A stretch of 64,000 nucleotides of DNA from positions 1-64,000 of the IMG/VR virus record IMGVR_UViG_3300046459_000548; one strand, 5' to 3'. This DNA is from a virus. The notes under the pieces were generated by a model. The model saw only the letters and a program-made list of their open reading frames with translations. It searched no databases and was not told the DNA's origin. A program made the position numbers and the translations under genes. This document shows, piece after piece, positions 13,748 through 29,738 of this stretch. Positions within the stretch are counted from its first letter, which is position 1, and every line of letters starts with the position of its first letter.

Positions 13748-16046
13748 ATGGCCAAGAAGCCCGTCATCCACCTCGCCGACCTGATCGGCTCCGTCCGCCG
13801 CTCCCCGAAGGGCACGCAGCTCGCCGTCCTCTGGCCGTCCCCGCCGCACCCCGCCCGCTGGATGGTCACCGACCGCTGGGGCTCCACCGGATACGAGCCC
13901 GACGAGACCGTCGCCGCATGGCCCGTCGTCGGCGCCGTCCCCTTCAGTCCGGCCGCCGGCATGGAGCTCGCCGAAATCAAGGAGTCCGCGTCATGAGCCA
14001 CACCGCACCCGCGTTCGACGGCACCGAGCTCGTCGCCGCGGCCCCCGCCAAGACCCGCCGCATAGTCGACGACTTCGAGGCGTGGATCGACGAGGTCACG
14101 CCGTACTACGTGGCCGAGGCCGACACCGGCGAGCCGTTCACCATCGACGAGGTCGCCCGCAAGCACCAGCTGCCCGACCCGCCCAAGCCGAAGTCGATGT
14201 GGGGGAGCCTCCCGATCCGCCTCCAGAACGAGGGGATCATCCGCCACCACGGCGGCAGCACCAGCGCACGCGCCGGACACAGCATGGTCCACGAATGGAT
14301 CGGCGTCCCCGTCGCCATGCGGGAGATGGTCGCCGCCCGGCGCCGCGAAGAGCGCGCCGCACGACGGGCCGCCCGCCAGCAGGAGAGGCGGGCAGCGTGA
14401 AGGACATCGCCCTCTTCCTCGCCTGCCTCGCGCTCATGACCGGCATCGCCGCTGTCGCCTACGCCTCCATCACCGGGAGGCGGACGTGAGGGACAACCTG
14501 GCCGCCGTCCTCGACGCCGCCTACTGGGGCCTGGCCATATCCGCGACCGTCCTCGCCGTCACCACCGCGGCCGTGACCGTCATCGCCGGCTACTGGACCA
14601 CCCACTGCGCCATCTGGGCCGGACGCCGGATGCGGCACCACTGGGACCTCGCCCGCATGCAAAGCCGGCCCGCACCACGGCAGACCGCCACCCCGCAAGC
14701 CTGCGACGACTACTGGACCATCCGCCGCGCATGGCGACAGCCCACACGAGAGGAGGCCGGACGATGACCGGCACCACCGAAACCCACACCCCGTCCCGCG
14801 CCTGCTACCAGCGCGGATGCCGCCTGCCGGAATGTGCGCTCGAGGACTACCGCTACCGCAAGCAGATCCAACTCGAGCACTCCCGTGGGCGACGCCGGCA
14901 GGCCAGCGCCGACCAGCCCCGAATCCACGTACACCGCCTGCACGCCGCGAGCTGGAACGACTACGAGATCGCACGCGCCTCCGGGGTGTGCCGATCCACC
15001 ATCGCCAACGTGTCCAATGGGCAGCCCACCGTGCGCAACTGGGTCGCCCTCGCCATCCTGTCCGTCCCCATCGGACCGCCCCCCGCCCCGCAGAAGCCTG
15101 AGGTCGACGCCACCGGCAGCATCCGCCGCCTGCGAGCCCTCGCCGTCATCGGCCACCCCTTCCACACCGTTGCCCCCTTCGTCGGCTGCAGCGCCGACAA
15201 GCTGTGGCTGATCGCCAGGGGCTCCTACGAGACCGTCAACGCAGACACTGCAGCCGGCGTCGCCCGCGCCTACAAGGCACTCGCCACCAAGCCCGGAACC
15301 AGTCCGATCTCGCGAGCCCGCGCAGTCCGCCGCAACTGGCACGGCCCGCTCTCGTGGGACGACATCGACGACCCGAACTGCAAGCCGGAAGAGGCCAAGT
15401 CGTACAAGCCGGCCGACAAGTACCGGCGCGACCCCGACCGCACGCGGGAGATCGAACACCTCTACCTGCTCGGCGAATCTCCGCAGCAGATCGCCAAGAA
15501 GGTCGGCGGCAACGAGAAGTACATCAGCGACCAGCTCAACGCGGTTATCGCCAAGCGCGCCGCCAAAGCCGAACGGGAACGACTCGCGGCCAAGCGGCAG
15601 CGGAAGCAGGTGGCGGCGTGAACGGGCACCGCGTCGGCGCCGGCAGCCGCGAGCGCCTCTACGCCTCCACCACCAGCACCTTCGACCCCGACCAGGACCT
15701 CGACTACATCGCCATCGAGTACGCCCTCAACGGCGAACCCGTCACGCTGACCCGCCCGGAGAAGATCCACGCCGCCCGGATCCTCGACAGCCGTGGCCTC
15801 GAGCCCTCCGCCATCGCAAGGCGCATCGACTCCGACCGCACGACCGTGGCCGGCTGGAAAGCCAACGGCTGGAAGCCCGGAAAGCCTGCAGCGTCGGGCA
15901 AGCCGCGGCGTACCGAACCCGTCTGCGGCGAGGCCCGCATGTACCGCCGCCACCTCAAGGCAGGCGAGCGCTGTGACGTCTGCCGCGCCGCCAACGCCGC
16001 CGCCGACCGCCGCTACAAGGCCACCGGCAGCCGCAAAGCCGCCTAG
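13748..16046 (+). other. coupled hypothetical early genes (13748-13996, 13993-14400, 14397-14489, 14486-14767, 14764-15621 HTH/Zn-binding, 15618-16046)
   Basis: Overlapping starts and stops; 14764 has CYQRGCRLPEC and HTH-like segments. Confidence 0.65.
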
Positions 16047-16106
16047 CCCGGACACGACGAAGCCCCGCCGTACAGGCGGGGCCGGAGGAAGGAGGAGGAC
16101 GTGGAG

Positions 16107-16439
16107 TCAGGTCGAGTCGAGAGCACGGCGCTTCGCGATGTCGAGGGCCTCGCGGATGACGCGGGCGTCGCGCTTCGCGTCGGGCTTATCGCTCGCTTCC
16201 AAGTCGTCGAGGTGGCCGCGGAGCTCGCGCAGCAGGGTGATGTCTTCGTACTGCTCAGCCGGCACGACCATCGCCACGCGACTGCCGCGCTCCGTGAAGG
16301 CCCCGGGGCGCTTCCCCCAGCTGACCTCGCGGATGAGTGCGGTCAGCGCGGCGCGGGCGTGGGTCATCGGGACCTCGGCGACGCCGTCCTCTGCGATCTG
16401 AATGCGCTGGTCAGCAGGCATGAACAGAGTGTAAGTCAT
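16107..16439 (-). CDS. Phd/YefM-like antitoxin-domain protein
   Basis: VPMTHARAALTALIREV...FTERGSRVAMVVPAEQYE. Confidence 0.65.
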   Translation of the reverse strand: MTYTLFMPADQRIQIAEDGVAEVPMTHARAALTALIREVSWGKRPGAFTERGSRVAMVVPAEQYEDITLLRELRGHLDDLEASDKPDAKRDARVIREALDIAKRRALDST

Positions 16440-16549
16440 TTCCAATCCTTCCAATGTGGCCAATCTTTAAAGTAGTATGGCAGGTGCGACCAGGCACCGC
16501 CAGACGCCCTTGCTTCCGCATGTCCAAGATCAAGCCGAAAGAAGCCCTG

Positions 16550-17824
16550 ATGGCCGTCTCCAAGCGCCTCCGGTACGAGATCCTCCGCAGGGATCAGCAC
16601 ACGTGCAGGTACTGCGGCGCGGGTGCGCCCGAGGTTCCGCTGCGCGTCGATCACGTCACCCCTGTGGCGCTCGGCGGCACCGACACGCCCGACAACCTCG
16701 TCACCAGCTGCGAGCCCTGCAACAGCGGCAAGAGCAGCGCCACCGTCGACTCCGCGGTCGTCGCCAACGTCAGTGATGACGCGCTCCGTTGGGCCGACGC
16801 CATCAAGCAGGCCGCGGACGAACTGCGCTCCCAGGAGGAGCCGAAGCGCGCCTACCGCACCGCGTTCGAGCAGGCCTGGAACGGATGGACCTGGGAGCGC
16901 AACGGAAAGAAGGAGACCTTCACCCTCCCTGCGGGATGGAAGGCCAGCCTCGACAGCTTCCACGAGGCCGGACTGCCCCAGGAGGTCTGGGCCGACATCG
17001 TCGAGAAGACCATGACCAACAAGTCGGTCAGCAGCGAAAACCTCTTCCGCTACGCCTGCGGCATCGGCTGGCGCATGGTGCGCGAGCTGCATGACCGGGC
17101 GAAAGCCATCACGGGGCGGATGGAGCAGAGCAGCGACTCCGTCGACTCGGTGACCCGAGCCGCTTGGGACGTGTGGGAGAGCGAGCAGGCTGACGACGTC
17201 ACGCCAGAGTTGCGCGCGAGCTTCCGGGAGAGCGTCGCCAGCCTCGTCGGTAGTGAAGAAGGGCACCGCATCATCTTCGGCGCCCAGCAGGCCGCATGGT
17301 GCGGAGAGGCAGACGTAGCAGGAGCGCTACAGGCCAACGATCACAACGAGGCCTATCACCAATGGTGGTGCTCTTGGATCTCGACGGTTGGCGAGTATCC
17401 GTCAGATGAGCGCGGCGCTCGGATGCGAGAGCAGATCGACGCACTGCTTGCGGCGCGAGTATCGCGAGCCCGTATCGCGAGGGCCGCGGTGTACGCCGGC
17501 TCCCGTCACTCGGCACTACTTCACTTCGGGTTGGACCCAGAGGAGCTAAAGCTCGTCCGCGTGACGGACTGGTTCGCCCAGGCCATGGAGATCTGGCGCA
17601 GCGCCTTCTATGCCGCCGCTGGCCACTGGCCTGGCGAGGAGGCGCGGTCCGCCTTCATTGACAGCCTCAGCTGCGCCGCCTCCGACGACGACATCTTCAT
17701 TGCGGACATCCATGCGGCTGCCGCCGCGGCTGGCACCTATCAGGACCCCGAGATCAGCACCTGCCTGACGCGGCATCTGTCGGTGTTCGAGATCGCGTCC
17801 CGTCCTTTGGAGGTTGCTGCCTGA
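16550..17824 (+). CDS. HNH endonuclease with long C-terminal extension
   Basis: RYEILRRDQHTCRYCG...VDHVTPVALGG...NLVTSCEPCNSGK. Confidence 0.85.
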   Translation: MAVSKRLRYEILRRDQHTCRYCGAGAPEVPLRVDHVTPVALGGTDTPDNLVTSCEPCNSGKSSATVDSAVVANVSDDALRWADAIKQAADELRSQEEPKRAYRTAFEQAWNGWTWERNGKKETFTLPAGWKASLDSFHEAGLPQEVWADIVEKTMTNKSVSSENLFRYACGIGWRMVRELHDRAKAITGRMEQSSDSVDSVTRAAWDVWESEQADDVTPELRASFRESVASLVGSEEGHRIIFGAQQAAWCGEADVAGALQANDHNEAYHQWWCSWISTVGEYPSDERGARMREQIDALLAARVSRARIARAAVYAGSRHSALLHFGLDPEELKLVRVTDWFAQAMEIWRSAFYAAAGHWPGEEARSAFIDSLSCAASDDDIFIADIHAAAAAAGTYQDPEISTCLTRHLSVFEIASRPLEVAA

Positions 17825-18675: not shown

Positions 18676-19276
18676 CGAGCAGACCAGCCGCCAGTCGTGG
18701 ATCGACGAGCGCCGGGACGCGGCGGTCGCCACCTTCGCCGCCAAGATCCCGGGCATCTACCAGATGGATGTCGAGCTGGCCCCCGACATCGCGCGGTGGG
18801 CGGCCGGGGAATCCAACTGCCCCAGCCTTTTCATCGCCGGCCCGCTCGGCGTCGGCAAGACACACAGCGCCTGGCAGGCCATCCGCCGGTGGGTGCATAC
18901 CCAGTTCGGCGCCAACTACCGCGGCACCCCCGTCGTCGAAAGCTGGCGTTCCACCGCCCTGTTCGACGCCCTGCGGCCCGACGCGGACGGCAACTCCGGG
19001 CGGGCCATGGTCAAGCGGCTCCAGAACGTCGACCTGCTGTACCTCGACGACCTCGCCGCAGCCCGTCCGTCGTCGTGGACGCAGGAGCGCCTCTTCGAGA
19101 TCTTCGACGACCGGTACATCAACCGCCGGCCCGTCCTGATCACCAGCGACGTGCTGCCGAAGGAACTCCTGGACGTCACCGGCGAGCGCGTCCTGTCCCG
19201 CCTCGCCGAAATGTGCCGCGGCGGCGTGGTCCTCCTCGAGGGCGCCGACCGGCGGCGCGGCGTCGCTGCCGCCTAG
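18659..19276 (+). CDS. DnaC/IstB-like AAA+ helicase loader
   Basis: Walker A GPLGVGKT, Walker B LYLDDL, ERVLSRLAEM. Confidence 0.85.
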   Translation: MHSNSDEQTSRQSWIDERRDAAVATFAAKIPGIYQMDVELAPDIARWAAGESNCPSLFIAGPLGVGKTHSAWQAIRRWVHTQFGANYRGTPVVESWRSTALFDALRPDADGNSGRAMVKRLQNVDLLYLDDLAAARPSSWTQERLFEIFDDRYINRRPVLITSDVLPKELLDVTGERVLSRLAEMCRGGVVLLEGADRRRGVAAA

Positions 19277-19320
19277 AAGCCCCCAACTCCCACCCCAACC
19301 AGCAACCAGGAGATCAACGC

Positions 19321-20682
19321 GTGACCACCGAAACCGACATCTGGGGACCCGACGAGCTCGAGCCCACCACCGGGCCGGCCGACGTCGACGCCGAGCACGT
19401 CGTCGCCGCCTCCGTCATGGCCCGACCCGAACTCATCGACGAGACCGCCGCCGAGTTCGACCCTGCCGACATGACCATCGACTGGCTGCGCTGGGTATGG
19501 CACGCCACCGACGAGATCCGGCAGACCCTCACCAAGGGCGAGATCCGCTGGCAGGCCGTCCACCGGCAGCTCGTCGCCTGGAAGGCCTCCGGTTACCTGC
19601 CGATCCCGTGCCCCAGCGAGGACCAGGTCGCCGACCTGTACAACTCCGCCAACCCTGGCGCCATGGCCTGGTACGCGGCCCGCATCACCAAGGCGGCCGT
19701 CGCCGCCCGGCTCGTCGCCCACGGCCACAACGCGATCCTCCGCGGCCGGTCCGCGGCCTTCGACCCCGACGAGGACATCGCCGCCATCCAGGCCGAGTTG
19801 GACGGCGTCGCCCGCACCGGCGAGCAGGCCGACATCACGACGCTCAGCGATCTGCTCGGCGACTCCCTCGTCCGCGCCGTCACCGCGCCCACGCACGACG
19901 ACCGCATCCCGACCGGCTTCATCGACCTCGACGCCCTGCTCTGCGGGGGGTTCACCGCCGGCCAGCTCGTCGTCGTCGGCGCTCGACCGGCCATGGGCAA
20001 GACCACCCTCGCCCAGGACTTCGCGCGGGCGGCGGCCATCGCCAACGGGATTCCGACGCTCATCGAATCGCTGGAGATGACCAAGGAGGAACTCTCCGAC
20101 CGGATCCTGTGCGCCGAAGCCCGCATCGCCCACCACCATCTGAAGCAGGGCGCCGCCACCGACGTCGATATGGCACGTGCAGCTCGCCGTGTCCCCGACA
20201 TTCAGGCAGCTCCGCTCTACGTCAACGACTCGCCGATCCTGTCGATGCCGATGCTCCGCGGTCAGGTCCGCCACCTCGTCCGCACGGCGGGCCTCCGCCT
20301 CGTGATCATCGACTACCTGCAGCTGATGCAGGTCGCGAAGGCGGAGAACCGGCAGCAGGCCATTGCCGACCTGTCCCGCAGCCTGAAGCTCCTCGCCAAG
20401 GAGTTCGGCATCGTCGTGATCATCCTGTGCCAGCTCAACCGCGGCCCCGAACAGCGCACCGAGAAGAAGCCGATGGTCTCCGACCTGCGCGAGTCCGGGG
20501 CGATCGAGCAGGACGCCGACATGGTGATCCTCCTCCACCGCGAGGACGCCTACGAGAAGGAAAGCCCTCGAGCCGGTGAAGCCGACCTGATCGTCGGCAA
20601 GCACCGGGGCGGCCCCACCGCCACGATCACCTGCGCCTTCCAGGGCCATTACAGCCGATTCGTGGACATGGCTCAGACCTGA
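19321..20682 (+). CDS. dnaB: replicative DNA helicase
   Basis: GARPAMGKT, IIDYLQLM, QLNRG, SDLRESGAIEQDAD, KHRGG. Confidence 0.95.
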   Translation: MTTETDIWGPDELEPTTGPADVDAEHVVAASVMARPELIDETAAEFDPADMTIDWLRWVWHATDEIRQTLTKGEIRWQAVHRQLVAWKASGYLPIPCPSEDQVADLYNSANPGAMAWYAARITKAAVAARLVAHGHNAILRGRSAAFDPDEDIAAIQAELDGVARTGEQADITTLSDLLGDSLVRAVTAPTHDDRIPTGFIDLDALLCGGFTAGQLVVVGARPAMGKTTLAQDFARAAAIANGIPTLIESLEMTKEELSDRILCAEARIAHHHLKQGAATDVDMARAARRVPDIQAAPLYVNDSPILSMPMLRGQVRHLVRTAGLRLVIIDYLQLMQVAKAENRQQAIADLSRSLKLLAKEFGIVVIILCQLNRGPEQRTEKKPMVSDLRESGAIEQDADMVILLHREDAYEKESPRAGEADLIVGKHRGGPTATITCAFQGHYSRFVDMAQT

Positions 20683-23600
20683 TGGCCGCCAGCCTCGAGC
20701 CCGAGGACTTCGCCGCCCTCCGCAAGGACGGCGACCTCGTCGGCTTCCTGCTCGCGCTCACCAGCACCGCCCCGTCGAAGCCAGCCCCGGCCGAACCCGA
20801 AGCGCCGGCCGAACCCGAGTACTTCATAGCCCACCGCGGGGCCTGGCCCATCGGCACCGCACCCAGCGGACCAACCCCGATGAACGGCCGATGCAGCTGC
20901 CCGAATTGCAGCCGAGGAGCCGCCTGATGCCCCGCCCCTGGCTGCGTCACCCGCCCGCCACGATCCGCCCCACTACCTGCCCGTCGGGTCTGCCGCGGTA
21001 CGCGACGGTCCGGCTGGCGTCGGCGGCCGTCCTCGGCCACGTCGGCGCCGCCCGTCTCGCACCGGCCTGCTGTGACCGGTGTGGCGGCGTGCACCTGCAA
21101 GCCGCGTGACCTCGCCCGTTGTTTGCCGCCCGACCCTCGGGCCGGGGAAACGGCGCACACCAGCCCGGTGTGGGCGGGATGCGAAATGTGGACAAACCAA
21201 CTCACCGACAGGAGAAGCCTGATGACCACCGACACCCAGACCAACGTGATCACCGACCCGGAGACGGAGGCCACCCACTACGGAATCCCCGTCTGCCACA
21301 TCGGCGAGGACGGCGACATGCTCGCCCTCGGCCACCCCGGCACCCGCCGCGCGTTCGCCGCCTTCAACCGGCACGCCCGCGTCTTCTGCAACCTCGCCAA
21401 CCTCGCCGACGACCAGAACGCCAGCCTCGACGACTGGTCGGACGTGATCACCGAGCAGTGGGTCGTCTTCCGGAAGGCCGACCCGAACAACTGCTGGGAA
21501 GACCCGGACAGCGAGTGGTTCTTCGACCGGGTCACCGAAGGCACGCCCGGTGCGCAGCCCGTGACGATCCTCGACATCTCCTGACGCCGCGGCCCGCCCG
21601 CAGTAGGCACAAACCCCAGCGAACCGCCCACCGAACGGAGAACCCCATGACCGACCAGAAGCCCCCCACCGAGCAGCAGCTCGACGAGTACGCGCAGCTC
21701 GCCAACGCGGCCTACGTAGGCCCGTGGCGCAACGATCAGACGCAGGATGACACCGCCGTCGTCTACGCTCCGGCCACCACCGAGAAGGGCAGCGAGTACG
21801 CCCACGTCCTCTTCGGAGCCGACTGGGGCACTGACGCCGACGCTGCGTTCATCGCCGCCGCCCGGACTGCGGTGCCCGCCCTCGTCGCGGAAGTCCGCCG
21901 CCTGCGCGCCGAGCTGGCCACCGCTCTGCGCCCGAACACTCCGCGGCTGTGCGCATGCGGCCACAGCAACCTCGCCCACACGGTCCCGGCGCCGCACTCG
22001 TGCTTTGCGCACGGCCAGACCTGCCCGTGTCAGGGCTACCGACAGTTGCCGCATGACGAGGCCGTGGCCCAGCTCGCACGGAACCGACAGGCCGCCGCCG
22101 AACGCGCCGTCGTCGAGGAGGCGCACGTCGTCGCCGACGACAGCGATGACCCCGAGCACGTTGACGACTGCCCTGGCTGCGAAGCGTTCACCCTCACCGG
22201 CCACCGCGCCGCCCCACCGCAGCCCACCCCGTGACCGCACGCACGGCCGCCGCTGTTCGACCCAGCGGCGGCCGGCCCCCCAATCCTCTCGCACGATCAA
22301 GGAGCGGCAGCATGACCGACACCACCGACCCGCATCGCGGCTTCCGCGCCGTGTTCACCGTGACCATCGAGACCCGCAAGGGCGGCGACTACTACTTCGA
22401 CCACGCCGACTTCGTCCGCCACGTCGGCCCGTGGATCGAAGGCGACCTCGACGACCGCGACGACATCCGCACGGTGACGATCACCGAGCAGCCCGCCGAC
22501 CGGGCCGAGCTGTCCGGCGCCGAGCGGCAGTTCCTCACCTTCGCCCTGGACCTGGCCGCCGATCAGATGGCCTCGCGCGGCAACGAGTTCGGTGCCGAGG
22601 ACACCGCGGCCCTGGAGAAGCTGCGCGGCATGGCCGACGGGGCGCAGCAGCCCAAAATCTGCGAGCTCCCGCACCTCACGATCGCCGAGGAAGACGCCTG
22701 CGAGCAGCACCGGCTCGGCGGCGAGGCGCAGCAGCCCGAGACGCAGGGCGGCGACGAGTCGTTCGGCACGGCCGACTGCACCTGCATCCCGTTCGTCCGC
22801 GAGGGCGGTACGGCCCGCTACTGCCGACCCGGCGACACCGTCGACCAGATCAGCGGCTGGGAGCGGGGTGGCGACTGCCCGCACCACCGGCCGACCGTCG
22901 TCGTGGCGCGGCAGGCCGACACCGCGGGGGAGCAGCAGTGAGCTGGGACGAGACTCCGTGCACCAACGAGCGTTACCTCGCCCACTTCGGCTTGCAGGTC
23001 GACCCCTGGCTGCTCGACGAGTGCACCGAATGCGAGTTCTGCGGCAGCTGCGTGATCCACATCTGCTACCGCGACGACGCCGACACGCTGCTGCACCTCG
23101 ACTGGTTCAAGGACTTCGCCAACCCCGGCGAACCCGAGTGCGGTTCGGTCGGCGGCCCGCCGAACCTCGTGCCGTCGCAGTACCAGCCGCGCGCCTGCCA
23201 GTTGCCCGCCGGACACGACGGCAAGCACCGCGCCCGCATGGGCTGGCACTGGGCCGCCACGAAGACCGCGCCCACCGCCTGACCCCGCCCCTGCCGCCCC
23301 TGCGCCGCGGGGGCGGCACCCCGCACCGAAAGGCACTACCGATGACGACCCGGATCCTGCGGCTGCTGGTCGACGAAGAGTTCGGCCGCCTGCTCGCCCT
23401 GTACCTGCGGCGCGGCGAGAAGCCTCGCGGCGCCCTGCTGATCGCGCTCCGTCTGCGGGCTACCGCCGACGGGCTGCTCCTGCCCAACGGGCGGATCAAG
23501 AACGGGGGCCGACCGTGAGCGCTCCGTCGTCGGCCCCGCACGGCGAGCACGCCGGAACCCCGGGCGCCGGCTGGGAGACGGAACTCGGGTCGACCGGCGA

Positions 23601-24005
23601 GCAGTACGTGCCGGACGGGCAGCCGGATCCGACAGCGAACCGGGCGGCACGACGGGCGGCGAGACGGGGGCGGAAGCGCTCAGACGGCCGCACAGCGCTT
23701 CGGCAGGGTCCGACTGGACCTCAGGGGGCCCGAGAAGCCGCCTGTACGCCTCTCTCGCCGCCTAGCGGCCCGCCGCGGTCCCCGTCTTGCTTCGACCCCC
23801 TGAACGCCAGCGACAGCCTCCCTGCACCGCCGCCGACCCGAACGGAGACCCGATGACCCCCGAGCCGCCACCCCTCAAGCAGATGCTGCACCTCGTCGAC
23901 CGGGCCGAACGCGGCGTCATCCTCCCCGCCGAAGCCGCCCGACTCCGCATCGCCATACGGGCGTTGTATGCCCGCGCCTACCCGCAGGCGGGGGAGGGCC
24001 GGTGA
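20682..24005 (+). other. post-replication hypothetical genes (20682-20927, 20927-21109, 21222-21584, 21647-22234, 22312-22941, 22938-23282, 23342-23518, 23853-24005)
   Basis: RBS-preceded or coupled ORFs, several Cys/His-rich. Confidence 0.55.
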
Positions 24006-24369
24006 CCGGCCTCAGCTCGAACCGGCCGGGCCCGCCTCACCGCCGACGCCGTCCGGCTCCGCAGGCGTCGGGCGAGGCCGCTGCCGTGGCACTTTCTCCC
24101 TGGCCACCCCGGCAGCGGCGCGAGCCAACTGTGTCCGCAGCTGGTCGAACGCCTGAGGCGACAGATCCCGCATTTTCCGGCTCCTGGTCATGCGCCACTA
24201 ACGCCGCACCGGGCGAGCCGACACCGCAATACGGCCAAATGGGGCGCGGCGTGAACCTCGGCACCCACCTCGACTGGCGCTTCAACGCGCAACTGTCCGG
24301 TTCGCGACCTTGCCCCCGTCATGTCCCACCCCCACCCTGACCAGGTTGGCTGACAATCGAGGGGGGCTC

Positions 24370-25206
24370 GTGGCATTCGGCAACGGCGAAGCGTTACGGC
24401 AGATCGGCATCCAGCTCAGGCAGGCCTTGACGGACCTCGCCGCGGTGAAGCAGCAGCTCACAGACCAGCAGCACGCCATCGACCAGATCCGGTTCGACAC
24501 CACCGCGGCCATCAACACCGGGCTCACCGAGAACCGGGCCGTGATCCGCGACGGCCTCACCCGCGCCAACGAGACGATCTCCGACCCGCTCACCCAGATC
24601 GGCTCCGAACTCGTCGCCATCCGCGGCGGCATCGGGCAGTTGGACAACCAGATCAGGACCGCAGCAGCAGCGGCGGTCGTTCAGCAACCGGCGCCCGAGC
24701 CAGCTCAGGAACCGGAGGCCGCGCCCGTCGAAGACCAAGCGCCCCCGGCGCCCGAGCCGGCCGTCGAACCAGAACCCGAGGCGCCGCACTGGGTCGAACA
24801 CGACCTCGACACCCTCCGAGCCGCAGCCGGCATCTCCGCGGCCAAACTCCACGCCCACCGCGACCTGTGGGCATTCCTCGTAGAACACGCAGGCCGCGAC
24901 CCGCACTTCCACATCCCCGGCGACGTCACCGCCAAGGGGGGAACCGTCCAAGTCGACGTCTCCGGGCGGAGCCTCGTCGCCGCACTCACCAGCCTCCGCT
25001 CCGTCTACCGGGCCGCCCATGTCGATCCGGGCACTGGAGCGATTGCCGAGCACCTGTACGAGCGCATCGCCAAGACCGTGAAGGACATCGCGGCATCGCC
25101 CCACAGCGGGGACGGTGCGGATCCCGTGGTCATCGTCATCGACGACCGGATCAAGCCAGAGGGCGAGCGGCCGCCAGCGCCATCCGAGCCCAACGACGAG
25201 AGCTGA
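24370..25206 (+). CDS. hypothetical coiled-coil protein with P/E/A linker
   Basis: GTG at 24370 after GAGGGGGG; heptad-like N-terminus. Confidence 0.65.
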   Translation: MAFGNGEALRQIGIQLRQALTDLAAVKQQLTDQQHAIDQIRFDTTAAINTGLTENRAVIRDGLTRANETISDPLTQIGSELVAIRGGIGQLDNQIRTAAAAAVVQQPAPEPAQEPEAAPVEDQAPPAPEPAVEPEPEAPHWVEHDLDTLRAAAGISAAKLHAHRDLWAFLVEHAGRDPHFHIPGDVTAKGGTVQVDVSGRSLVAALTSLRSVYRAAHVDPGTGAIAEHLYERIAKTVKDIAASPHSGDGADPVVIVIDDRIKPEGERPPAPSEPNDES

Positions 25207-25213
25207 ACGCGAA

Positions 25214-25249
25214 GCGCCCCCGCCCGGATTGCTCCGTGGCGGGGGCGCT
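25214..25249. terminator. hairpin between convergent genes
   Basis: AGCGCCCCCGCC...GGCGGGGGCGCT. Confidence 0.6.
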
Positions 25250-25260
25250 GTGCTGTGCCG

Positions 25261-25620
25261 TCAGGCGGCGAGTAGCTCGATCTCGATCGCGAGGGCGCCC
25301 AGCGCCTCCTTCTCGGGCGGGTAGATCCCGCGGATGTTCGCGAGCTGCTCATCGCGGCCAGCTGCCGGGTTCACGTTCGCCGGCCCCTCACCGTCCAGGA
25401 GCGCCTCGAAGTCCGGGTATGCGGTGACCCGCTTCACGAGTACGTCGCACGTCTCGTCGGTGCCCTTGATCCGGAACCGGATCGTGTCCCCGGCAGCCAT
25501 GTCCGCGAGGTGCGGATACCGCACCCGGACCTCGATCGATTTGCGGCCCGCGGCGACGAGATCGAAGTATCTGCGGTACAGATTCAGGTCGTGTCTGCGG
25601 GCGGTGGTCGTGTCGCTCAT
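25261..25620 (-). CDS. ASCH (PUA-like) domain protein
   Basis: YFDLVAAGRKSIEVR...GDTIRF...YPDFEALL matches the ASCH GxKxxExR motif. Confidence 0.9.
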   Translation of the reverse strand: MSDTTTARRHDLNLYRRYFDLVAAGRKSIEVRVRYPHLADMAAGDTIRFRIKGTDETCDVLVKRVTAYPDFEALLDGEGPANVNPAAGRDEQLANIRGIYPPEKEALGALAIEIELLAA

Positions 25621-26726
25621 GGGGTGGTGACGCTCCTTGTCGGGTTGGACATGAGGCGGCCGAGTTCGCCGGCCGAATACGCGCGGAAGAAGTGCCGCGG
25701 ATCGGCGAGCAGGACGTCGGCCATGTCGAGCAGTTGGCTGGCGTACTCGGACAACGATCCCTGCCACAGGCGGGTATCGAGCATCCACGGGGCAGCGCCC
25801 TCCGGCAATGCTGCCTTGCCCTCCCGGATGAGGCTCTTGGACAGCTTCGCCCCGGTGTCCGTGACGACCTGCGGGCAGAACAGCCGCGTCGGCAACTGCC
25901 CGGCCGTGAGCCCGATCGCCGTCAGGGCGTTGTCGACGAGAGTCGAGCCGAACACCCAGTCGCCACCCTTGACCATCACACTCAAGCGTTCGCGGTCCGT
26001 GCTGGCGGCGAGCTCCTTGACGAGATTGCGGTACAGCGTCGCGAGGTCGAGATAGCCGCCGCTGCCGGGGGCGATGACGACCTCGTATGGGCCGTGATGC
26101 AGGCAGACGGCGTGCACCACGGCGTAGTCGTCGCCGAGTAGAACACGGGTCCGCTCCGCATGCTTCTCCGCCCACCCGCAATCAGGCTGCGGGCAGGGAA
26201 CGCGGACGTGCGGGCTGCCGTGAGCCGGGTCCAGCCACCAGCGGGCAGCATCGATCCGGCGGTGAGCACGCAGCCAGGTCAGCCGGAAGTGCTCGCCGGC
26301 CTGCTGGCGGGAGTACATCGCGATCGAGTACGGGACCGACAGGCGGTCGGACAGCGCGGCGAACAGAGGCCGGTACAACTCGTCGACCTGGCCGGCGAGA
26401 GTGTCCTCGCCGAGGGCCTGGGCGTAGGCGCGCTGATACCGGTGCCCCGACGCCGGGTCGGTGACGATCTCGTGCGGGGCGTTGTCGAGGGCGCCGAACA
26501 TGACGTCGACGGGGATGCCGAAGCGGTCTCGGGCCCGGGCCGCGGCGGCGAAAGTCAGGGACTGCACCAGCGAGGTGCCCAGATGGGGCACACCGTTGAT
26601 CTGGGTGCCGACCACGAACGTGATACGCGAAGGGCGTGTGGTCCGCACGCGGGGTGAGAGGACGTCCTCGACGGCGCCGAGCGCGTTGGCCAGCACCGTG
26701 TTCGGAGAAACGGGAAATGCAGGCAT
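25617..26726 (-). CDS. class I aminoacyl-tRNA synthetase-like protein (class I LysRS-like catalytic core, no anticodon domain)
   Basis: HIGH-like PHLGT, KMSKS-like GAKLSKS, Zn site CPQPDC...CLHH; 369 aa. Confidence 0.8.
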   Translation of the reverse strand: MPAFPVSPNTVLANALGAVEDVLSPRVRTTRPSRITFVVGTQINGVPHLGTSLVQSLTFAAAARARDRFGIPVDVMFGALDNAPHEIVTDPASGHRYQRAYAQALGEDTLAGQVDELYRPLFAALSDRLSVPYSIAMYSRQQAGEHFRLTWLRAHRRIDAARWWLDPAHGSPHVRVPCPQPDCGWAEKHAERTRVLLGDDYAVVHAVCLHHGPYEVVIAPGSGGYLDLATLYRNLVKELAASTDRERLSVMVKGGDWVFGSTLVDNALTAIGLTAGQLPTRLFCPQVVTDTGAKLSKSLIREGKAALPEGAAPWMLDTRLWQGSLSEYASQLLDMADVLLADPRHFFRAYSAGELGRLMSNPTRSVTTP

Positions 26727-26749
26727 GTCTGCTCCCTGGACGGGGCTGG

Positions 26750-27061
26750 TCAGATTTCCGTGGTGACGAACGGCGCCGGCAACTGCGGCAGGTCGACGTC
26801 AAAGACCTGGGCGAGCAGATAGCGGGCCACAGTGTCGTGCTCCAGCTCGCTACGCCCGGCAGGCATGGACAGGATGATCTCGCCGCTCTTGCGCTGGACG
26901 ACCGCGCCGTAGAAGCCGGCGTCCGCGATCGAGCTCTCGAAGAGCTCCACCCCGGTCTCGATCAGGAGGTCAGGCAGCGGGGCGTCGAGCAGACGATCGG
27001 GCGTGACGGACGCCGCAGGGGCGGAGGTGGCGACGGCGGGAGCAGGGATTGCTAAGGTCAT
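26750..27061 (-). CDS. small hypothetical protein, first gene of the aaRS-like/ASCH operon
   Basis: AAGGA RBS; 103 aa; loosely ImmA/IrrE N-lobe-like but no HEXXH. Confidence 0.7.
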   Translation of the reverse strand: MTLAIPAPAVATSAPAASVTPDRLLDAPLPDLLIETGVELFESSIADAGFYGAVVQRKSGEIILSMPAGRSELEHDTVARYLLAQVFDVDLPQLPAPFVTTEI

Positions 27062-27170
27062 GGGTGTAGTCCTTTTCTGACGGGACGGATTGCAGATCAG
27101 CGGCTGGAACCGCTGGTTGATGAACTGGCCGGGCGTTCGAGCGCCCGGCCGTTCGCTTTTGTGCGGTGAC

Positions 27171-27929
27171 CTACTCGGGGTCAGGGACTGCGACGTAGAG
27201 AATCTGAGGGCGGCCCACCTTGGGTTTCCTTTTGCCAGCCACCCTGAATCGTCCAGTTGCAGTCAAGCGCCGCGAGTAGACGCGCACGGTGCCCTCCGGA
27301 GCGCCCAGCCGCTCCCTTAGGTCTGACTGGCTGAAGGGCTGGTCACCGAATGCTTTCAAGGCGAGCCCGTGAAGGCGGCGAGCCTCGAAGCGCTTCGGCT
27401 CGCGATCCGCACCCCGGCGCCGTTTAGCCTCCCGATTCCGAAAGAAGGGCTCAATCGCGGCCCACGAGAACAGCCAAGTGCCGCTTACTTGGCACCAGTC
27501 GCTTTGAGGGACAGGCCACAGTGGGTCCGACTGGGCAATCCTGATGAGCCCGGTTCGCGTCAGGGGTGCGGTGTAGCCGAGCGCGACCGCGCGCCGGACC
27601 ATCTCTGAGAACGTGACCAGGTCATCCTGGTCGACGGTGGGGAATGGGCCCCTTGGGCGGGCCGACACTCGCGTCGCATCGAGGGCGTGCCTTTTGTTGT
27701 GGAGTGGCTTCTCTTCCCTGATGGCGCGGACCTCGGCCAGCGCCGCCTCCAGCCGACTGGGATACCAGCTGGTCTCCGATGAGGCCGCGGTGGGCCACCA
27801 TGTCAGCGCAGCGTCGCGTGCGTGTTGGGAGAATCTTGCGTTCGGACTGTTGGTTATCCCGACATAGAGCAGGGTTCCGTCAGGGTCGAAGAACCGGTAG
27901 AGCGCGGTGCGCTCGGGAGATGCGGGCAT
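27171..27929 (-). CDS. GIY-YIG nuclease fused to HTH domains
   Basis: TALYRFFD...LLYVGIT...RFSQH...AEVRAIREEKPLHN. Confidence 0.8.
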   Translation of the reverse strand: MPASPERTALYRFFDPDGTLLYVGITNSPNARFSQHARDAALTWWPTAASSETSWYPSRLEAALAEVRAIREEKPLHNKRHALDATRVSARPRGPFPTVDQDDLVTFSEMVRRAVALGYTAPLTRTGLIRIAQSDPLWPVPQSDWCQVSGTWLFSWAAIEPFFRNREAKRRRGADREPKRFEARRLHGLALKAFGDQPFSQSDLRERLGAPEGTVRVYSRRLTATGRFRVAGKRKPKVGRPQILYVAVPDPE

Positions 27930-28068
27930 GCCGCTCCTTACTGAGCGTGTGGCGTGGGCCACTCGCACGGACAGAACCGTAAGGCTTACTCATTCAGGTA
28001 TCAAGCCCGAGCGTTCGGATATGCAAAAGCCCCCGGTCGGAGGCCGGGGGCGTGCAAGTGGGAGACAG

Positions 28069-28833
28069 TCAGGGGCAGTCGACGCTGTACGCCATCTTGA
28101 AGCGGTGCGCCGGCTTCGTGAGCAGCGAGACCTCGATCGGCCGCTGCTCGTCGCTGTACACGACGCGGAAGATCTCGATCACCGGTACATCGCGCGGGAT
28201 CTCGAGGTGTACGTACTCCTCGGTGGTGGCCGGTCGCGCGCCAAGCACGTCATCCTGTGAGCGGGTCGGGTATCCCATCTCCTCCAGTAGGAGCGGCGAT
28301 CCGCCCGGGATGAGCCTCCGGTCCTCGAGCCGCGTCCCGCGCGCCAGCTCGATCGGGTAGTACGAATGCACCAGTTCGGCTGGCTTGCCATCGAGGTAGC
28401 CGATGCGGGACCGGCGCATCGCCGTCCCGTCCTCGTCTAGGCCGAGAGCGAGGCGGACTTGTTTCGGCGGTTTCACCTCGCCGACCTCGAGCATCTTGTA
28501 CTTGCCGTGCTGCTGGTTCTTCGTGGCCTCGGTCAGCCACCGGTACGGCTGCCCCGGCTCGGAGGGGCGCAGGCTGTGTGCGGGGCTGATTGCCTGGGAG
28601 CCTTCGTTGCGCACGAAGACGCCGACTCCAGTCTGGCCCTCGAGGAACCTTTCGTCTTTGAGGATCTGGAGGGCGCGCTGAATGGTCACGTTCGACGTTT
28701 CGAACTGTTCCCTCAGCTTCTCGTTTGTGGGGACCCGGGCTCCAGGTTCCCAGTCGCCCGACATGATCAGCTTTCTGATCTCGGCGGCGATGCGCTCACC
28801 GAGGGGGCGCTTGTCCTCGTGCGGCTCGGGCAT
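28069..28833 (-). CDS. GntR/HutC-family regulator with UTRA domain (KorA/KorSA/TraR-like)
   Basis: RIAAEIRKLIMSGDWEPGARVPT...TIQRALQILKDE...GVGVFVR plus UTRA. Confidence 0.9.
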   Translation of the reverse strand: MPEPHEDKRPLGERIAAEIRKLIMSGDWEPGARVPTNEKLREQFETSNVTIQRALQILKDERFLEGQTGVGVFVRNEGSQAISPAHSLRPSEPGQPYRWLTEATKNQQHGKYKMLEVGEVKPPKQVRLALGLDEDGTAMRRSRIGYLDGKPAELVHSYYPIELARGTRLEDRRLIPGGSPLLLEEMGYPTRSQDDVLGARPATTEEYVHLEIPRDVPVIEIFRVVYSDEQRPIEVSLLTKPAHRFKMAYSVDCP

Positions 28834-28834
28834 G

Positions 28835-29365
28835 TCAGTCGACCTCGATCTCGTAGTGGAGGCGGCGAGGCGCCTTCATGACCATGAACTGCACTTCGAT
28901 GGGGCTCCCGTCTTCGGCGGTGGTCGTGCGTAGCAGCGTCAGGACACTCGAGCCCTCAGGGAGGGAGAGCGCGGTGCGCTCGAAGTCGTCCGCCTCCCGG
29001 AACTCCAGATCCTCGGAGACGTGCCGGGCGTGGTAGCCGAGTTCGGCCAGCAGTGTGGGTGCGCCGCCTTTGATCTTCTTCTTCTCGAGGAGCGCTGTAC
29101 CGCGCGCGATCTCGAGCGGGTAATACGAGTCGGCGAGTTCGATCGCTTCATCGTCGAGCAGGATGACCCGGCGGCGAACAGCGACCTTCTCGCCGGCTCC
29201 GAGAGAGAGGGTGGCGGCCACCTCTCGCGGCGGCACGACCTCGGCGACCTCGGTGAGTTGCTGACCGCCTCGTTGCCGCATCTCCTCACTCCAGGCGTCC
29301 GCTTGCCCCTGTTCGCGAGGCGTGACGTAGGCGAGTGAGTCATTCCGTCGCTGATTCTCGGCCAT
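28835..29365 (-). CDS. stand-alone UTRA domain protein
   Basis: ELADSYYPLEIARGT...GGAPTLLAELGY, paralogous to the neighbour's UTRA; no HTH. Confidence 0.85.
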   Translation of the reverse strand: MAENQRRNDSLAYVTPREQGQADAWSEEMRQRGGQQLTEVAEVVPPREVAATLSLGAGEKVAVRRRVILLDDEAIELADSYYPLEIARGTALLEKKKIKGGAPTLLAELGYHARHVSEDLEFREADDFERTALSLPEGSSVLTLLRTTTAEDGSPIEVQFMVMKAPRRLHYEIEVD

Positions 29366-29537
29366 CTCTTGAGCCTCCCCTCCACTGATGATGCTCGTTC
29401 TGACCTCCCAACCTTAAGCCCTTGATGATTACAGATGCCTGCACCCGCTTGGCCGAATCTGCGTCGCGAGGCTTGCTACGTTATGCATCAAGGCTTTAAG
29501 GTCGTTGACAGATGCGAAACCCGCGATCGGAGGCGCA

Positions 29538-29738
29538 ATGCTGCGAGTTCGGGACGTCGCGACGCACTTCCGAGTGCACCCCGCGACCGTCTATCGATGG
29601 ATCCACCAGGGCTTTGTTCCTGCCTACAGGAACGGCCAGCCCTACCAGCCCGGAGACGGTGCCACCGGCACGCTCCGCATTCCCGAGTCCGTCCTGAATT
29701 CGACGGACACCCCTCAGCCGTCCACGGAGGTGGCCTGA
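29538..29738 (+). CDS. excisionase-like HTH_17 protein
   Basis: MLRVRDVATHFRVHPATVYRWIHQG. Confidence 0.85.
   Translation: MLRVRDVATHFRVHPATVYRWIHQGFVPAYRNGQPYQPGDGATGTLRIPESVLNSTDTPQPSTEVA

What the first reader, a model, noticed from the sequence alone, without database searches (positions are those of the whole stretch)
25261..27061. Three-gene operon: anticodon-less class I aaRS paralog coupled to an ASCH protein
Seen: a counter-oriented operon of a 103-aa protein, a 369-aa enzyme with HLGT, KLSKS and Zn motifs that ends soon after KMSKS, and an ASCH gene overlapping its stop (ATGA). Known: aaRS catalytic paralogs (GluQ, EpmA, MshC) ligate amino acids onto non-canonical acceptors; the ASCH protein YqfB hydrolyses N4-acylcytidines. 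Inference: a writer/eraser pair that aminoacylates a nucleobase, tRNA or nucleotide and reverses it, acting as a toxin-antitoxin, anti-phage defence or counter-defence system.
Basis: partly seen in the sequence, partly recalled or inferred. Interest (0 to 1): 0.85.

Follow-up and report, generated by a model that had tools for sequence, protein, structure and literature searches.

The report
LysRS-like ligase core paired with ASCH
A temperate Streptomyces phage carries an uncharacterised enzyme that looks like the catalytic half of a class I lysyl-tRNA synthetase. Its gene sits next to, or is fused with, an ASCH (N4-acylcytidine-hydrolase-type) gene in nearly every relative checked, which points to an unknown amino-acid-to-nucleobase chemistry rather than ordinary tRNA charging.

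Summary
On the minus strand, 27061-25261, lie a 103-aa gene, a 369-aa gene and a 119-aa ASCH gene that overlaps it by ATGA. Two very stable hairpins bracket the unit.

- **The 369-aa protein.** It has no Pfam, NCBIfam or PDB sequence match. Its AlphaFold model (pLDDT 93) is a class I aaRS catalytic core closest to class I LysRS (Z 19.9), then BshC (Z 17.5). PHLGT, GGDW, GAKLSKS and a CPx4C...CxxHG knuckle are conserved across the family. There is no anticodon-binding domain.
- **Link to ASCH.**
  - An ASCH gene follows in 90 of 90 close loci.
  - The two are fused into one ORF in a sister clade, with all motifs kept.
  - A ZmASCH-type partner is adjacent in 20 of 20 loci of a Bacillota-like clade only about 25% identical, in either orientation.
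  - The ASCH catalytic Lys/Glu/Arg are invariant.
- **Distribution.** The pair is patchy mobile cargo: 43 of 301 Streptomyces species, plus phages Picard and Mojorita, plasmids and islands.
- **The 103-aa gene.** It is a lineage-restricted add-on.
- **Reading.** I read the pair as one cooperating two-part enzyme that makes or controls an aminoacyl-nucleobase conjugate. The fusions argue against a toxin-antitoxin pair, and a defence role is unshown. I found no paper describing the pair.

The parts
25617..26726 (-). 369-aa stand-alone class I aaRS-like catalytic core, closest to class I LysRS, with no anticodon-binding domain
   Evidence: ORF. No Pfam, NCBIfam or PDB sequence match. PHROG 35625 full length, E 2e-178. 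AF2 model pLDDT 93.2, pTM 0.92. 1irx Z 19.9 and BshC Z 17.5.
26574..26588 (-). PHLGT, the HIGH-type ATP-binding motif (residues 47-51)
   Evidence: P47, H48 and G50 are invariant in 49 sequences; position 51 is T or S in all.
26475..26489 (-). LDNAP motif at the end of strand 2. D81 lies where class I enzymes place the acid that binds the substrate's alpha-amino group (inference from memory, not tested).
   Evidence: L80 and N82 are at least 90% conserved; position 81 is D or E in 47 of 49 sequences.
26091..26195 (-). Putative zinc knuckle in the CP1-type insertion: CPQPDC (178-183) ... CLHHG (208-212)
   Evidence: C178, C183, C208 and H211 are each present in 47 of 49 sequences.
25956..25967 (-). 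GGDW (residues 254-257), which the profile aligns with the G-[ED]-[ED]-[HW] motif of GluRS
   Evidence: D256 and W257 are invariant.
25833..25853 (-). GAKLSKS, the KMSKS-type loop (residues 292-298)
   Evidence: G292, K294 and K297 are invariant.
25261..25620 (-). 119-aa ASCH protein, translationally coupled to the ligase gene (ATGA overlap at 25617-25620)
   Evidence: Pfam PF04266 E 1.7e-9. PHROG 19935 E 7e-44. Closest solved relatives are Pyrococcus ASCH proteins 2z0t and 1xne, E 1e-7. An ASCH gene follows the ligase gene in 90 of 90 loci.
25525..25548 (-). ASCH octapeptide GRKSIEVR (G-x-K-x-x-E-x-R, the 'GKER' type)
   Evidence: K27, E30 and R32 are invariant in 18 partner ASCH sequences. 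The equivalent Lys and Glu are catalytically essential in TthASCH, EOLA1 and TRIP4 (bioRxiv 10.64898/2026.02.27.708502).
26750..27061 (-). 103-aa acidic protein (pI 4.1) of no known family; a lineage-restricted first gene of the local unit
   Evidence: No Pfam, PHROG or PADLOC hit. AAAGGA lies upstream of its ATG. It is found upstream of the pair in only 8 of 90 loci. It has 216 clusters; every source-named hit among the 120 listed is a Streptomyces hypothetical protein.
25215..25247 (.). GC-rich hairpin between the convergent ends of the ASCH gene and the plus-strand gene 24310-25206; likely a two-way terminator
   Evidence: -39.2 kcal/mol, z -6.9, 0 of 200 shuffles fold as well.
27126..27151 (.). 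GC-rich hairpin between the GIY-YIG gene and the 103-aa gene; the upstream boundary of the three-gene unit
   Evidence: 11-pair stem; -31.2 kcal/mol, z -4.5.

Best explanation
The 369-aa gene encodes a free-standing catalytic core of a class I aminoacyl-tRNA synthetase. Its fold is nearest to class I LysRS and it lacks the anticodon-binding domain. Together with the ASCH protein from the overlapping downstream gene it forms one conserved two-part enzyme, which a sister clade encodes as a single polypeptide. Inferred mechanism: the core uses ATP (HIGH- and KMSKS-type motifs are intact) to activate an amino acid, or a related carboxylate, as an acyl-adenylate. It then transfers the acyl group to an amino group of a cytosine-type base on a nucleoside, a nucleotide or an RNA. 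The ASCH domain works with the ligase, either as the pocket that presents the acceptor base or as a product-specific amidohydrolase that proofreads or resets it. It does not act as an independent antitoxin. The pair is horizontally mobile cargo of temperate Streptomyces phages, plasmids and genomic islands. What it gives its carrier is unknown; a role in phage-host conflict is possible but not shown. The 103-aa gene is a local add-on. Shown here: fold, motifs, family, linkage, fusion and distribution. Inferred: substrate, acceptor, and whether ASCH binds or hydrolyses.
For: Fold: AF2 pLDDT 93.2. Foldseek top hit is class I LysRS 1irx, E 1.8e-9. VIA-align gives 1irx Z 19.9 over 289 residues of the catalytic part (chain residues 3-338), then BshC Z 17.5, then CysRS, ArgRS, MshC and GluRS at 13-15. 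Motifs are invariant across 49 members down to 22% identity, and position 81 is D or E in 47 of 49. Linkage: an ASCH gene lies directly downstream in 90 of 90 Streptomyces and IMG/VR loci. A single continuous ORF holds both domains in five independent loci (Prauserella and Amycolatopsis plasmids, two IMG/VR contigs, one genome), in database proteins P0123, P0133 and P0239 with all motifs kept, and in a 246-member cluster of about 491 aa in the ESM Atlas. The fusion model has pLDDT 94.1 and pTM 0.91, with the linker at 88-94. In a clade about 25% identical (gut-metagenome contigs), a 191-204-aa partner with G-x-K-x-x-E-x-R is adjacent in 20 of 20 informative loci: 17 upstream on the same strand and 3 downstream, convergent. 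That partner's profile hits the ZmASCH structures 5GUQ/5GUS at E 2e-8. A Macrococcoides plasmid keeps a homologous partner (hhalign probability 95.7%). The ASCH residues K27, E30 and R32 are invariant and match the catalytic residues of tested ASCH amidohydrolases. Precedent: TmcAL ligates acetate to N4 of a tRNA cytidine by an aminoacylation-like mechanism (PMC11109946). Nucleotide enzymes recur nearby in unrelated hosts: NUDIX, AAA_28 kinase, HAD with a weak pyrimidine-nucleotidase match, LOG/TIGR00730 and Ham1.
Against: There is no biochemical evidence; donor, acceptor and the ASCH activity are all inferred. A Pantoea relative has no ASCH gene within 4 kb, so the partnership does not cover the whole superfamily. 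The distant partners resemble ZmASCH, which is reported to be a single-stranded RNA nuclease inactive on ac4C (PMC5615036). This ASCH is acidic (pI 5.4), unlike the basic ASCH proteins that bind nucleic acid. I could not see the interface or a PAE map, and the complex predictor was closed, so 'rigid docking' rests on pTM alone. The recurrence of nucleotide-enzyme neighbours is anecdotal and was not tested for enrichment. BshC, the second-best structural match, acts on an amino sugar rather than a base.
Confidence: 0.45

Rival explanations
1. An enzyme that modifies tRNA or another RNA, working like GluQRS or TmcAL. The core aminoacylates or acylates a base in a specific tRNA, and ASCH replaces the missing anticodon-binding domain as the RNA- and base-recognition module.
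For: GluQRS also lacks an anticodon domain (4a91, Z 12.2). TmcAL sets the precedent. ASCH/PUA domains bind RNA, and ASCH proteins remove ac4C from tRNA. The CP1-type insertion that contacts the acceptor end in true synthetases is retained. The gut-clade partners are basic (median pI 8.4) and carry a C-terminal extension.
Against: The Streptomyces/phage ASCH is small and acidic (pI 5.4). No tRNA gene lies in the window. Neighbours in other hosts are nucleotide enzymes, transporters and ATP-grasp ligases rather than translation genes. Invariant catalytic Lys/Glu suggest chemistry and not only binding.
Confidence: 0.2
2. One reading: an antagonistic writer/eraser pair in which the ligase is a toxin and ASCH its antidote, acting as a toxin-antitoxin, abortive-infection or counter-defence system.
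For: The two genes are tightly coupled on phages, plasmids and islands with a patchy distribution (43 of 301 Streptomyces species). Degraded copies exist. In Picard the pair lies beside the integrase and immunity region. On one Streptomyces plasmid it follows a gene annotated as a Pycsar effector family protein. A neighbouring NUDIX protein matches PADLOC candidate PDC-S07 at E 3e-13, and the neighbouring methyltransferase weakly matches mad2. GNAT-EVE conflict operons also carry ASCH genes (PMC7641849).
Against: A whole clade fuses both domains with both active sites intact, and the fusion folds as one body, which is unusual for a toxin and its antitoxin. Neither protein matches a PADLOC model. 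The ASCH gene lies downstream of the presumed toxin. In three loci the partner is convergently transcribed and so not co-regulated.
Confidence: 0.15
3. A small-molecule ligase of the MshC/BshC kind. It joins an amino acid to an amino sugar or another metabolite, or acts on N4-acylcytosine-type nucleoside antibiotics, with ASCH serving as an amidase in the same pathway or as a resistance enzyme.
For: BshC is the second-best structural match (Z 17.5) and MshC scores about 13. Relatives lie in small clusters with two ATP-grasp ligases and an MFS transporter (Macrococcoides plasmid) or with a methyltransferase, LOG, a DMT exporter and Ham1 (Pantoea plasmid). The ASCH protein YqfB acts on free N4-acylcytosine compounds (PMC6972931).
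Against: In Streptomyces and its phages the module is only two genes, with no further biosynthetic genes conserved around it. It is carried by small temperate phages such as Picard (39.5 kb). This reading overlaps the best explanation if the metabolite is a nucleoside.
Confidence: 0.12
4. An ordinary phage-encoded aminoacyl-tRNA synthetase, as the Picard annotation 'tRNA synthetase' implies, that supplements host tRNA charging.
For: The class I fold with HIGH- and KMSKS-type motifs, and the PHROG and GenBank name.
Against: There is no anticodon-binding domain. No Pfam or NCBIfam synthetase model matches. Identity to any solved synthetase is only 10-14%. The ASCH partner is found in nearly all relatives checked. 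The gene is present in only about 14% of Streptomyces species.
Confidence: 0.03

Closest known systems
Class I lysyl-tRNA synthetase (LysRS-I; PDB 1irx; Pfam PF01921)
   Same: Best structural match: Z 19.9, 289 residues aligned over the catalytic Rossmann/CP1/stem-contact part. It has HIGH- and KMSKS-type motifs. The ESM Atlas places truncated PF01921 clusters nearby.
   Different: About 10-14% identity and no PF01921 hit. The anticodon-binding and C-terminal domains are missing. It has an ASCH partner in nearly all relatives checked. It is accessory and mobile rather than a housekeeping gene.
BshC and MshC (cysteine ligases of bacillithiol and mycothiol synthesis)
   Same: Class I synthetase cores that act without tRNA on a non-tRNA amine acceptor. 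BshC scores Z 17.5 and MshC about 13.
   Different: There is no sequence relationship and no thiol-pathway context. The partner here is a domain that recognises nucleobases.
GluQRS (YadB) and TmcAL
   Same: Synthetase-like enzymes that put an acyl or aminoacyl group on a tRNA base rather than the 3' end. GluQRS lacks an anticodon domain (Z 12.2). TmcAL makes N4-acetylcytidine, the substrate type of ASCH enzymes.
   Different: No sequence match. Neither is reported with an ASCH partner in the papers read. TmcAL did not appear among the listed structural matches.
ASCH amidohydrolases (YqfB, TthASCH, Pyrococcus ASCH) and ZmASCH
   Same: PF04266 match, GxKxxExR octapeptide and a size of about 120 aa. 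The closest solved relatives are the Pyrococcus proteins PH0355 and PF0469. The distant partners resemble ZmASCH.
   Different: Known ASCH enzymes are not described as partners of a ligase, either as a separate gene or as a fusion. This one is acidic. Its substrate is unknown.
Streptomyces phage Picard gp28/gp29 (also Mojorita)
   Same: The same gene pair at 69% protein identity, overlapping in the same way, in a cultured temperate phage.
   Different: There the pair lies next to a serine integrase and follows an HATPase_c_2 / XRE-DUF5753 / DUF397 set. It has no 103-aa gene. It is annotated only as 'tRNA synthetase' and 'RNA-binding protein'.

Membership tests
Class I aminoacyl-tRNA synthetase catalytic-domain superfamily | Rossmann-type catalytic fold with a CP1 insertion | tested here: met
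   Model pLDDT 93.2. The matches listed are class I synthetases or their catalytic paralogues (BshC, MshC, GluQRS, a cyclodipeptide synthase, PyrN), Z 9-20.
Class I aminoacyl-tRNA synthetase catalytic-domain superfamily | HIGH and KMSKS signature motifs | tested here: met
   PHLGT (47-51) and KLSKS (294-298). H48, G50, K294 and K297 are invariant in 49 sequences.
Canonical aminoacyl-tRNA synthetase (a tRNA-charging enzyme) | Anticodon-binding domain | tested here: not met
   The protein ends 71 residues after KLSKS. The alignment to 1irx stops at chain residue 338 of a chain listed at 507-508 residues.
Canonical aminoacyl-tRNA synthetase (a tRNA-charging enzyme) | Esterifies an amino acid to the 3' end of a tRNA | not testable with these tools
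   This needs an aminoacylation assay.
Class I LysRS (Pfam PF01921 tRNA-synt_1f) | Match to the family's sequence model | tested here: not met
   No Pfam or NCBIfam hit at E up to 1. The family profile against PDB sequences reaches only GluRS, at E 2e-4.
ASCH domain (Pfam PF04266) | Match to the family's sequence model above the gathering score | tested here: met
   38.7 bits against 21.2, E 1.7e-9. PDB relatives 2z0t and 1xne at E 1e-7.
ASCH domain (Pfam PF04266) | Octapeptide G-x-K-x-x-[ETS]-x-R with catalytic Lys and Glu | tested here: met
   GRKSIEVR at residues 25-32. K27, E30 and R32 are invariant in 18 partners and are kept in the fusions. Their roles are described.
ASCH N4-acylcytidine amidohydrolase (YqfB / TthASCH type) | Hydrolyses N4-acylcytidine | not testable with these tools
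   This needs an enzyme assay. The NCBIfam YqfB equivalog scores only 13 bits against a cut-off of 93.
Known anti-phage defence systems (PADLOC-DB 2.0) | Match of any component to a defence-system model | tested here: not met
   No hit for the three proteins or the GIY-YIG neighbour. Only weak hits for neighbours in other genomes.
Type II toxin-antitoxin pair | Two separate, antagonistic proteins, with a toxin neutralised by its partner | tested here: inconclusive
   Toxicity was not testable. Natural fusions that keep both active sites and a convergently placed partner argue against it.

The most novel reading that the evidence does not exclude
The pair writes, and edits or reads, a so far undescribed N-aminoacyl-cytidine-type mark on a nucleotide or on tRNA. 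Temperate phages and plasmids would use it in conflict with the host or with rival phages, for example by altering a cytidine-based signalling nucleotide or protecting or disabling a tRNA. That would make it a new class of nucleobase aminoacylation system with a dedicated PUA-like partner.
Probability: 0.2. Interest if true: 0.85.

Novelty: new variant of a known kind. Interest (0 to 1): 0.68.

Why it matters
Synthetase paralogues that have lost tRNA charging have repeatedly revealed new chemistry; examples are GluQRS, MshC, PoxA, TmcAL and the cyclodipeptide synthases. This is a large family with no Pfam or NCBIfam model:

- It has at least 329 clusters at 50% identity.
- It is present in about one in seven of the Streptomyces species sampled.
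- It also occurs in Bacillota and Proteobacteria.

Its near-constant partner is a domain only recently shown to remove N4-acyl groups from cytidine and tRNA. The pairing gives a concrete biochemical hypothesis that is cheap to test, and it can be studied in a cultured phage (Picard, on S. venezuelae). It also shows that the database label 'tRNA synthetase' for these phage genes is misleading.

Tried and rejected
- **Sequence searches on the 369-aa protein.** Pfam, NCBIfam, PADLOC and PDB phmmer gave nothing. Only a family profile reached GluRS, weakly.
- **Searches that could not run or found nothing.** Scans of viral contigs with the Photorhabdus and Acinetobacter relatives found nothing, so their neighbourhoods are unknown. 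The 'longer' protein search found no forms above 646 aa.
- **hhalign.** The gut-clade partner alignment against the Streptomyces ASCH alignment gave nothing. The link to ASCH came instead from a profile-to-PDB hit on ZmASCH.
- There is therefore no complex prediction with controls, no neighbourhoods by identity look-up and no expression data.
- **RNA features.** There is no tRNA gene in the window. No Rfam family lies near the unit apart from a sub-threshold CRISPR-repeat match on the 27126-27151 hairpin, which I take as chance.
- **TmcAL.** It was not among the structural matches listed; this says nothing about relatedness.
- **Picard gp27.** It is not similar to the 'Pycsar effector family' gene that precedes the pair on a Streptomyces plasmid.
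- **GntR/UTRA genes.** I rejected them as part of the module. A terminator-like site follows the GntR gene (28051-28029), they are shared with only a few loci, and earlier notes assign them to a neighbouring transfer module.
- **Literature.** Searches found no paper on a synthetase-like/ASCH pair.
Full report
**Where the window comes from.** The window is the first 64 kb of a 92,199-bp IMG/VR virus record that CheckV rates complete. GC is about 69%. It carries a tyrosine integrase (1700-3025), a DnaB helicase (18697-20682) and a large terminase (54514-57177) that is 39% identical to that of Gordonia phage JonJames. It is therefore a temperate actinophage, most likely of Streptomyces.

**Observation.**
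- The three minus-strand ORFs lie at 26750-27061 (103 aa), 25617-26726 (369 aa) and 25261-25620 (119 aa).
- The last two overlap by ATGA at 25617-25620.
- The unit is bracketed by two GC-rich hairpins. One, at 27126-27151, follows the upstream GIY-YIG/HTH gene. The other, at 25215-25247, lies between the ASCH gene and the convergent plus-strand gene. Their energies are -31.2 and -39.2 kcal/mol (z -4.5 and -6.9), and no shuffle folds as well.
- AAAGGA lies upstream of the first ATG.
- So a three-gene transcription unit is plausible in this phage.

**The 369-aa protein.**
- It matches no Pfam or NCBIfam model and no PDB sequence. It matches PHROG 35625 ('tRNA synthetase') over its full length, E 2e-178.
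- An exhaustive HMMER search found 329 representatives at 50% identity, nearly all 340-390 aa. The word-indexed search found more than 690 clusters at 90% identity. Among the 120 best listed, those with a source name are almost all Streptomyces 'hypothetical protein'.
- In an alignment of 49 members down to 22% identity, P47, H48, G50, R233, D256, W257, P285, G292, K294 and K297 are invariant. C178, P179, C183, C208, H211, G212, N82, R148, R175, R348 and Y350 are at least 90% conserved. These residues correspond to a HIGH-type motif (PHLGT), a KMSKS-type loop (GAKLSKS), a GxDW motif and a Cys3His knuckle. The profile aligns the GxDW motif with the G-[ED]-[ED]-[HW] motif of GluRS.
- Position 81 is Asp or Glu in 47 of 49 sequences. 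By its place after strand 2, it sits where I recall class I synthetases placing the acid that binds the alpha-amino group. This is an inference I did not test. It favours an amino acid over a simple carboxylate as substrate.
- The AlphaFold model is confident (pLDDT 93.2, pTM 0.92). Foldseek ranks class I LysRS 1irx first, E 1.8e-9.
- VIA-align scores, both as a second look and as an independent scan of 48,161 chains:

| Match | Z | Aligned residues |
|---|---|---|
| Class I LysRS 1irx | 19.5-19.9 | 289-291, ending at chain residue 338 |
| BshC 4wbd | 17.5 | 291 |
| ArgRS, CysRS, MshC, GluRS | 13-15 | 219-269 |
| GluQRS | 12.2 | 216 |

- The protein is thus the catalytic part of a class I enzyme without the anticodon-binding domains.

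**The ASCH partner.** The 119-aa protein passes the Pfam ASCH threshold. Its closest solved relatives are the Pyrococcus ASCH proteins. It carries GRKSIEVR, the G-x-K-x-x-E-x-R octapeptide. K27, E30 and R32 are invariant in 18 partner sequences. A 2026 preprint shows that the equivalent Lys and Glu are essential for removal of ac4C from tRNA by TthASCH, EOLA1 and TRIP4, and that several Pyrococcus ASCH proteins hydrolyse ac4C. This ASCH is acidic (pI 5.4), unlike the basic ASCH proteins that bind nucleic acid.

**Linkage.** Four observations, taken together, tie the two genes into one functional unit:
- In 80 Streptomyces genome loci and 10 IMG/VR loci found with the ligase as query, an ASCH gene lies directly downstream in all 90.
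- In five independent loci the two domains share one uninterrupted ORF: the Prauserella and Amycolatopsis plasmids, two viral contigs and one genome. Database proteins of 443-489 aa, including a RefSeq Nonomuraea protein, keep the HIGH-type, KMSKS-type, knuckle and octapeptide motifs. The ESM Atlas holds a 246-member cluster of about 491 aa carrying ASCH. A model of the 484-aa fusion has pLDDT 94.1 and pTM 0.91 with a well-ordered linker. This suggests a fixed arrangement of the two domains. I could not inspect the interface.
- In a clade only 22-26% identical (contigs largely from gut metagenomes; the Atlas's nearest clusters are Bacillota), a 191-204-aa gene carrying G-x-K-x-x-E-x-R is adjacent in all 20 informative loci. 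It is upstream and co-directional in 17 and downstream and convergent in 3. It has no Pfam hit, but its profile matches the ZmASCH structures 5GUQ/5GUS at E 2e-8.
- A Macrococcoides plasmid has a homologous partner overlapping the ligase gene.

A different ASCH subtype, a different gene order and even a different orientation all keep the adjacency. That points to a functional unit, not to inherited synteny. One exception was seen: a Pantoea megaplasmid relative has no ASCH gene within 4 kb. It lies instead between a methyltransferase, a LOG/TIGR00730 protein, a DMT transporter and a Ham1 pyrophosphatase.

**The 103-aa gene.** This gene has no known family and is acidic (pI 4.1). It occurs upstream of the pair in only 8 of the 90 loci, namely those closest to this phage. 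It has 216 clusters, and every source-named hit among the 120 listed is from Streptomyces. It is an add-on and not part of the core.

**Distribution and context.**
- The ligase was found in 43 of 301 sampled Streptomyces species and in 5 of 401 sampled Actinomycetota. Some genomes hold truncated remnants or second copies.
- It lies in phages Picard and Mojorita next to the serine integrase, after an HATPase_c_2 / XRE-DUF5753 / DUF397 set.
- Many Streptomyces loci share the order relaxase, SAM methyltransferase, HATPase_c_2, the pair, XRE-DUF5753, NUDIX.
- It also lies on plasmids of Streptomyces, Amycolatopsis, Prauserella, Macrococcoides/Macrococcus and Pantoea.
- Nucleotide-handling genes recur nearby in unrelated hosts: NUDIX, an AAA_28 kinase, a HAD hydrolase with a weak pyrimidine-nucleotidase match, LOG and Ham1. 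One Macrococcoides plasmid adds two ATP-grasp ligases and an MFS transporter. One Streptomyces plasmid has a 'Pycsar system effector family' gene just upstream. These neighbours are anecdotes, not statistics.
- No component matches PADLOC.

**Interpretation.** The fold and the intact ATP motifs make adenylate-forming ligase chemistry very likely. The missing anticodon domain, the absence of any synthetase family match and the accessory distribution make ordinary tRNA charging very unlikely. The family-wide partnership with a PUA-like domain whose characterised members hydrolyse N4-acylcytidine points to an acyl- or aminoacyl-cytosine-type conjugate. So does the precedent of TmcAL, a synthetase-like enzyme that writes ac4C by an aminoacylation-like mechanism. 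The two proteins are fused with both active sites kept, and the fusion folds as one body. I therefore read ASCH as a cooperating module, either an acceptor pocket or a proofreading or resetting hydrolase. Synthetase editing domains and bifunctional synthetase/amidases (examples from my own knowledge) show that this combination is not futile. I do not read it as an antidote to a toxin. Whether the acceptor is a free nucleotide, which the acidic ASCH and the nucleotide-enzyme neighbours favour, or an RNA, which ASCH biology and the basic distant partners favour, remains open. A benefit in phage-host conflict is plausible from the mobile context but unsupported by any test here.

**Comparison and novelty.** The enzyme works like the known non-canonical synthetase paralogues but belongs to none of them. 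It fails the sequence model and the domain architecture of LysRS-I and shows no sequence relationship to GluQRS, MshC or BshC. TmcAL was not compared directly and was not among the structural matches listed. Eight full-text searches found no description of a synthetase-like/ASCH pair; the only label is the GenBank and PHROG name 'tRNA synthetase'. I class it as a new variant of a known kind: a tRNA-independent or base-directed synthetase paralogue with a novel partner found in nearly all relatives checked.

**Limits.** No coordinates or PAE could be examined. The neighbourhoods of the Photorhabdus and Acinetobacter relatives were not reached.

Noticed in passing
window 27171-27968 (-): A 265-aa protein with an N-terminal GIY-YIG nuclease domain (Pfam E 9e-6; PHROG endonuclease E 7e-19) and a weak C-terminal winged-HTH match lies directly upstream of the unit. 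It travels with the pair in the closest phage-like loci (92-93% identity in L005 and L084). It may be a homing-type endonuclease that helps move the cassette.
   Followed up: partly
window 28069-29365 (-): A GntR-UTRA regulator and a solo UTRA protein, followed by a terminator-like site at 28051-28029. They face a plus-strand Xis/MerR-like HTH ORF at 29505-29738. Earlier notes on this genome tie them to a TraB/Spd-type transfer module, not to the ligase unit.
   Followed up: partly
L127 (Pantoea sp. JZ29 plasmid pJZ29-01, record 74546-78326): A distant family member lies in an apparent operon: SAM methyltransferase, ligase, LOG/TIGR00730 protein, DMT transporter, Ham1 NTP pyrophosphatase. No ASCH gene is present. 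It looks like a nucleotide-derived metabolite pathway.
   Followed up: partly
L126 (Macrococcoides bohemicum plasmid p19Msa0383-2, record 13886-17800): Two ATP-grasp ligases, the synthetase-like gene and an overlapping ZmASCH-like 137-aa gene lie beside an HTH regulator and an MFS transporter. It looks like a small biosynthetic cluster on a mobilisable plasmid.
   Followed up: partly
L128 and L129 (Prauserella marina and Amycolatopsis sp. AA4 plasmids): The ligase and ASCH domains lie in one continuous ORF, yet the plasmid gene table lists only a 126-aa 'ASCH domain-containing protein'. The ligase part has no listed gene, which may be an annotation gap or may reflect the incompleteness of the PLSDB table. 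An AAA_28 (NadR-like kinase) gene precedes the fusion in both plasmids.
   Followed up: partly
L130 (Streptomyces sp. CRCS-T-1 linear plasmid, record 23163-25835): The pair directly follows genes annotated 'RRQRL motif-containing zinc-binding protein' and 'Pycsar system effector family protein'. This hints at a defence neighbourhood, but it is a single case.
   Followed up: no
L095 and L096 (genome G002, Streptomyces sp. NBC_01384): Besides the intact pair, this genome holds a decayed copy (a ligase remnant plus an ASCH gene with an internal TAG). It also holds a stand-alone ASCH paralogue, 47% identical, with no ligase within 1.5 kb.
   Followed up: partly
L001 (Streptomyces phage Picard, gp24-gp29): In Picard the pair follows an HATPase_c_2 protein, an XRE-DUF5753 regulator and a DUF397 protein. 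From memory, this is the WhiJ-type trio common in Streptomyces. The same trio members flank the pair in many chromosomal loci. The GenBank names 'tRNA synthetase' and 'RNA-binding protein' are probably misleading.
   Followed up: partly
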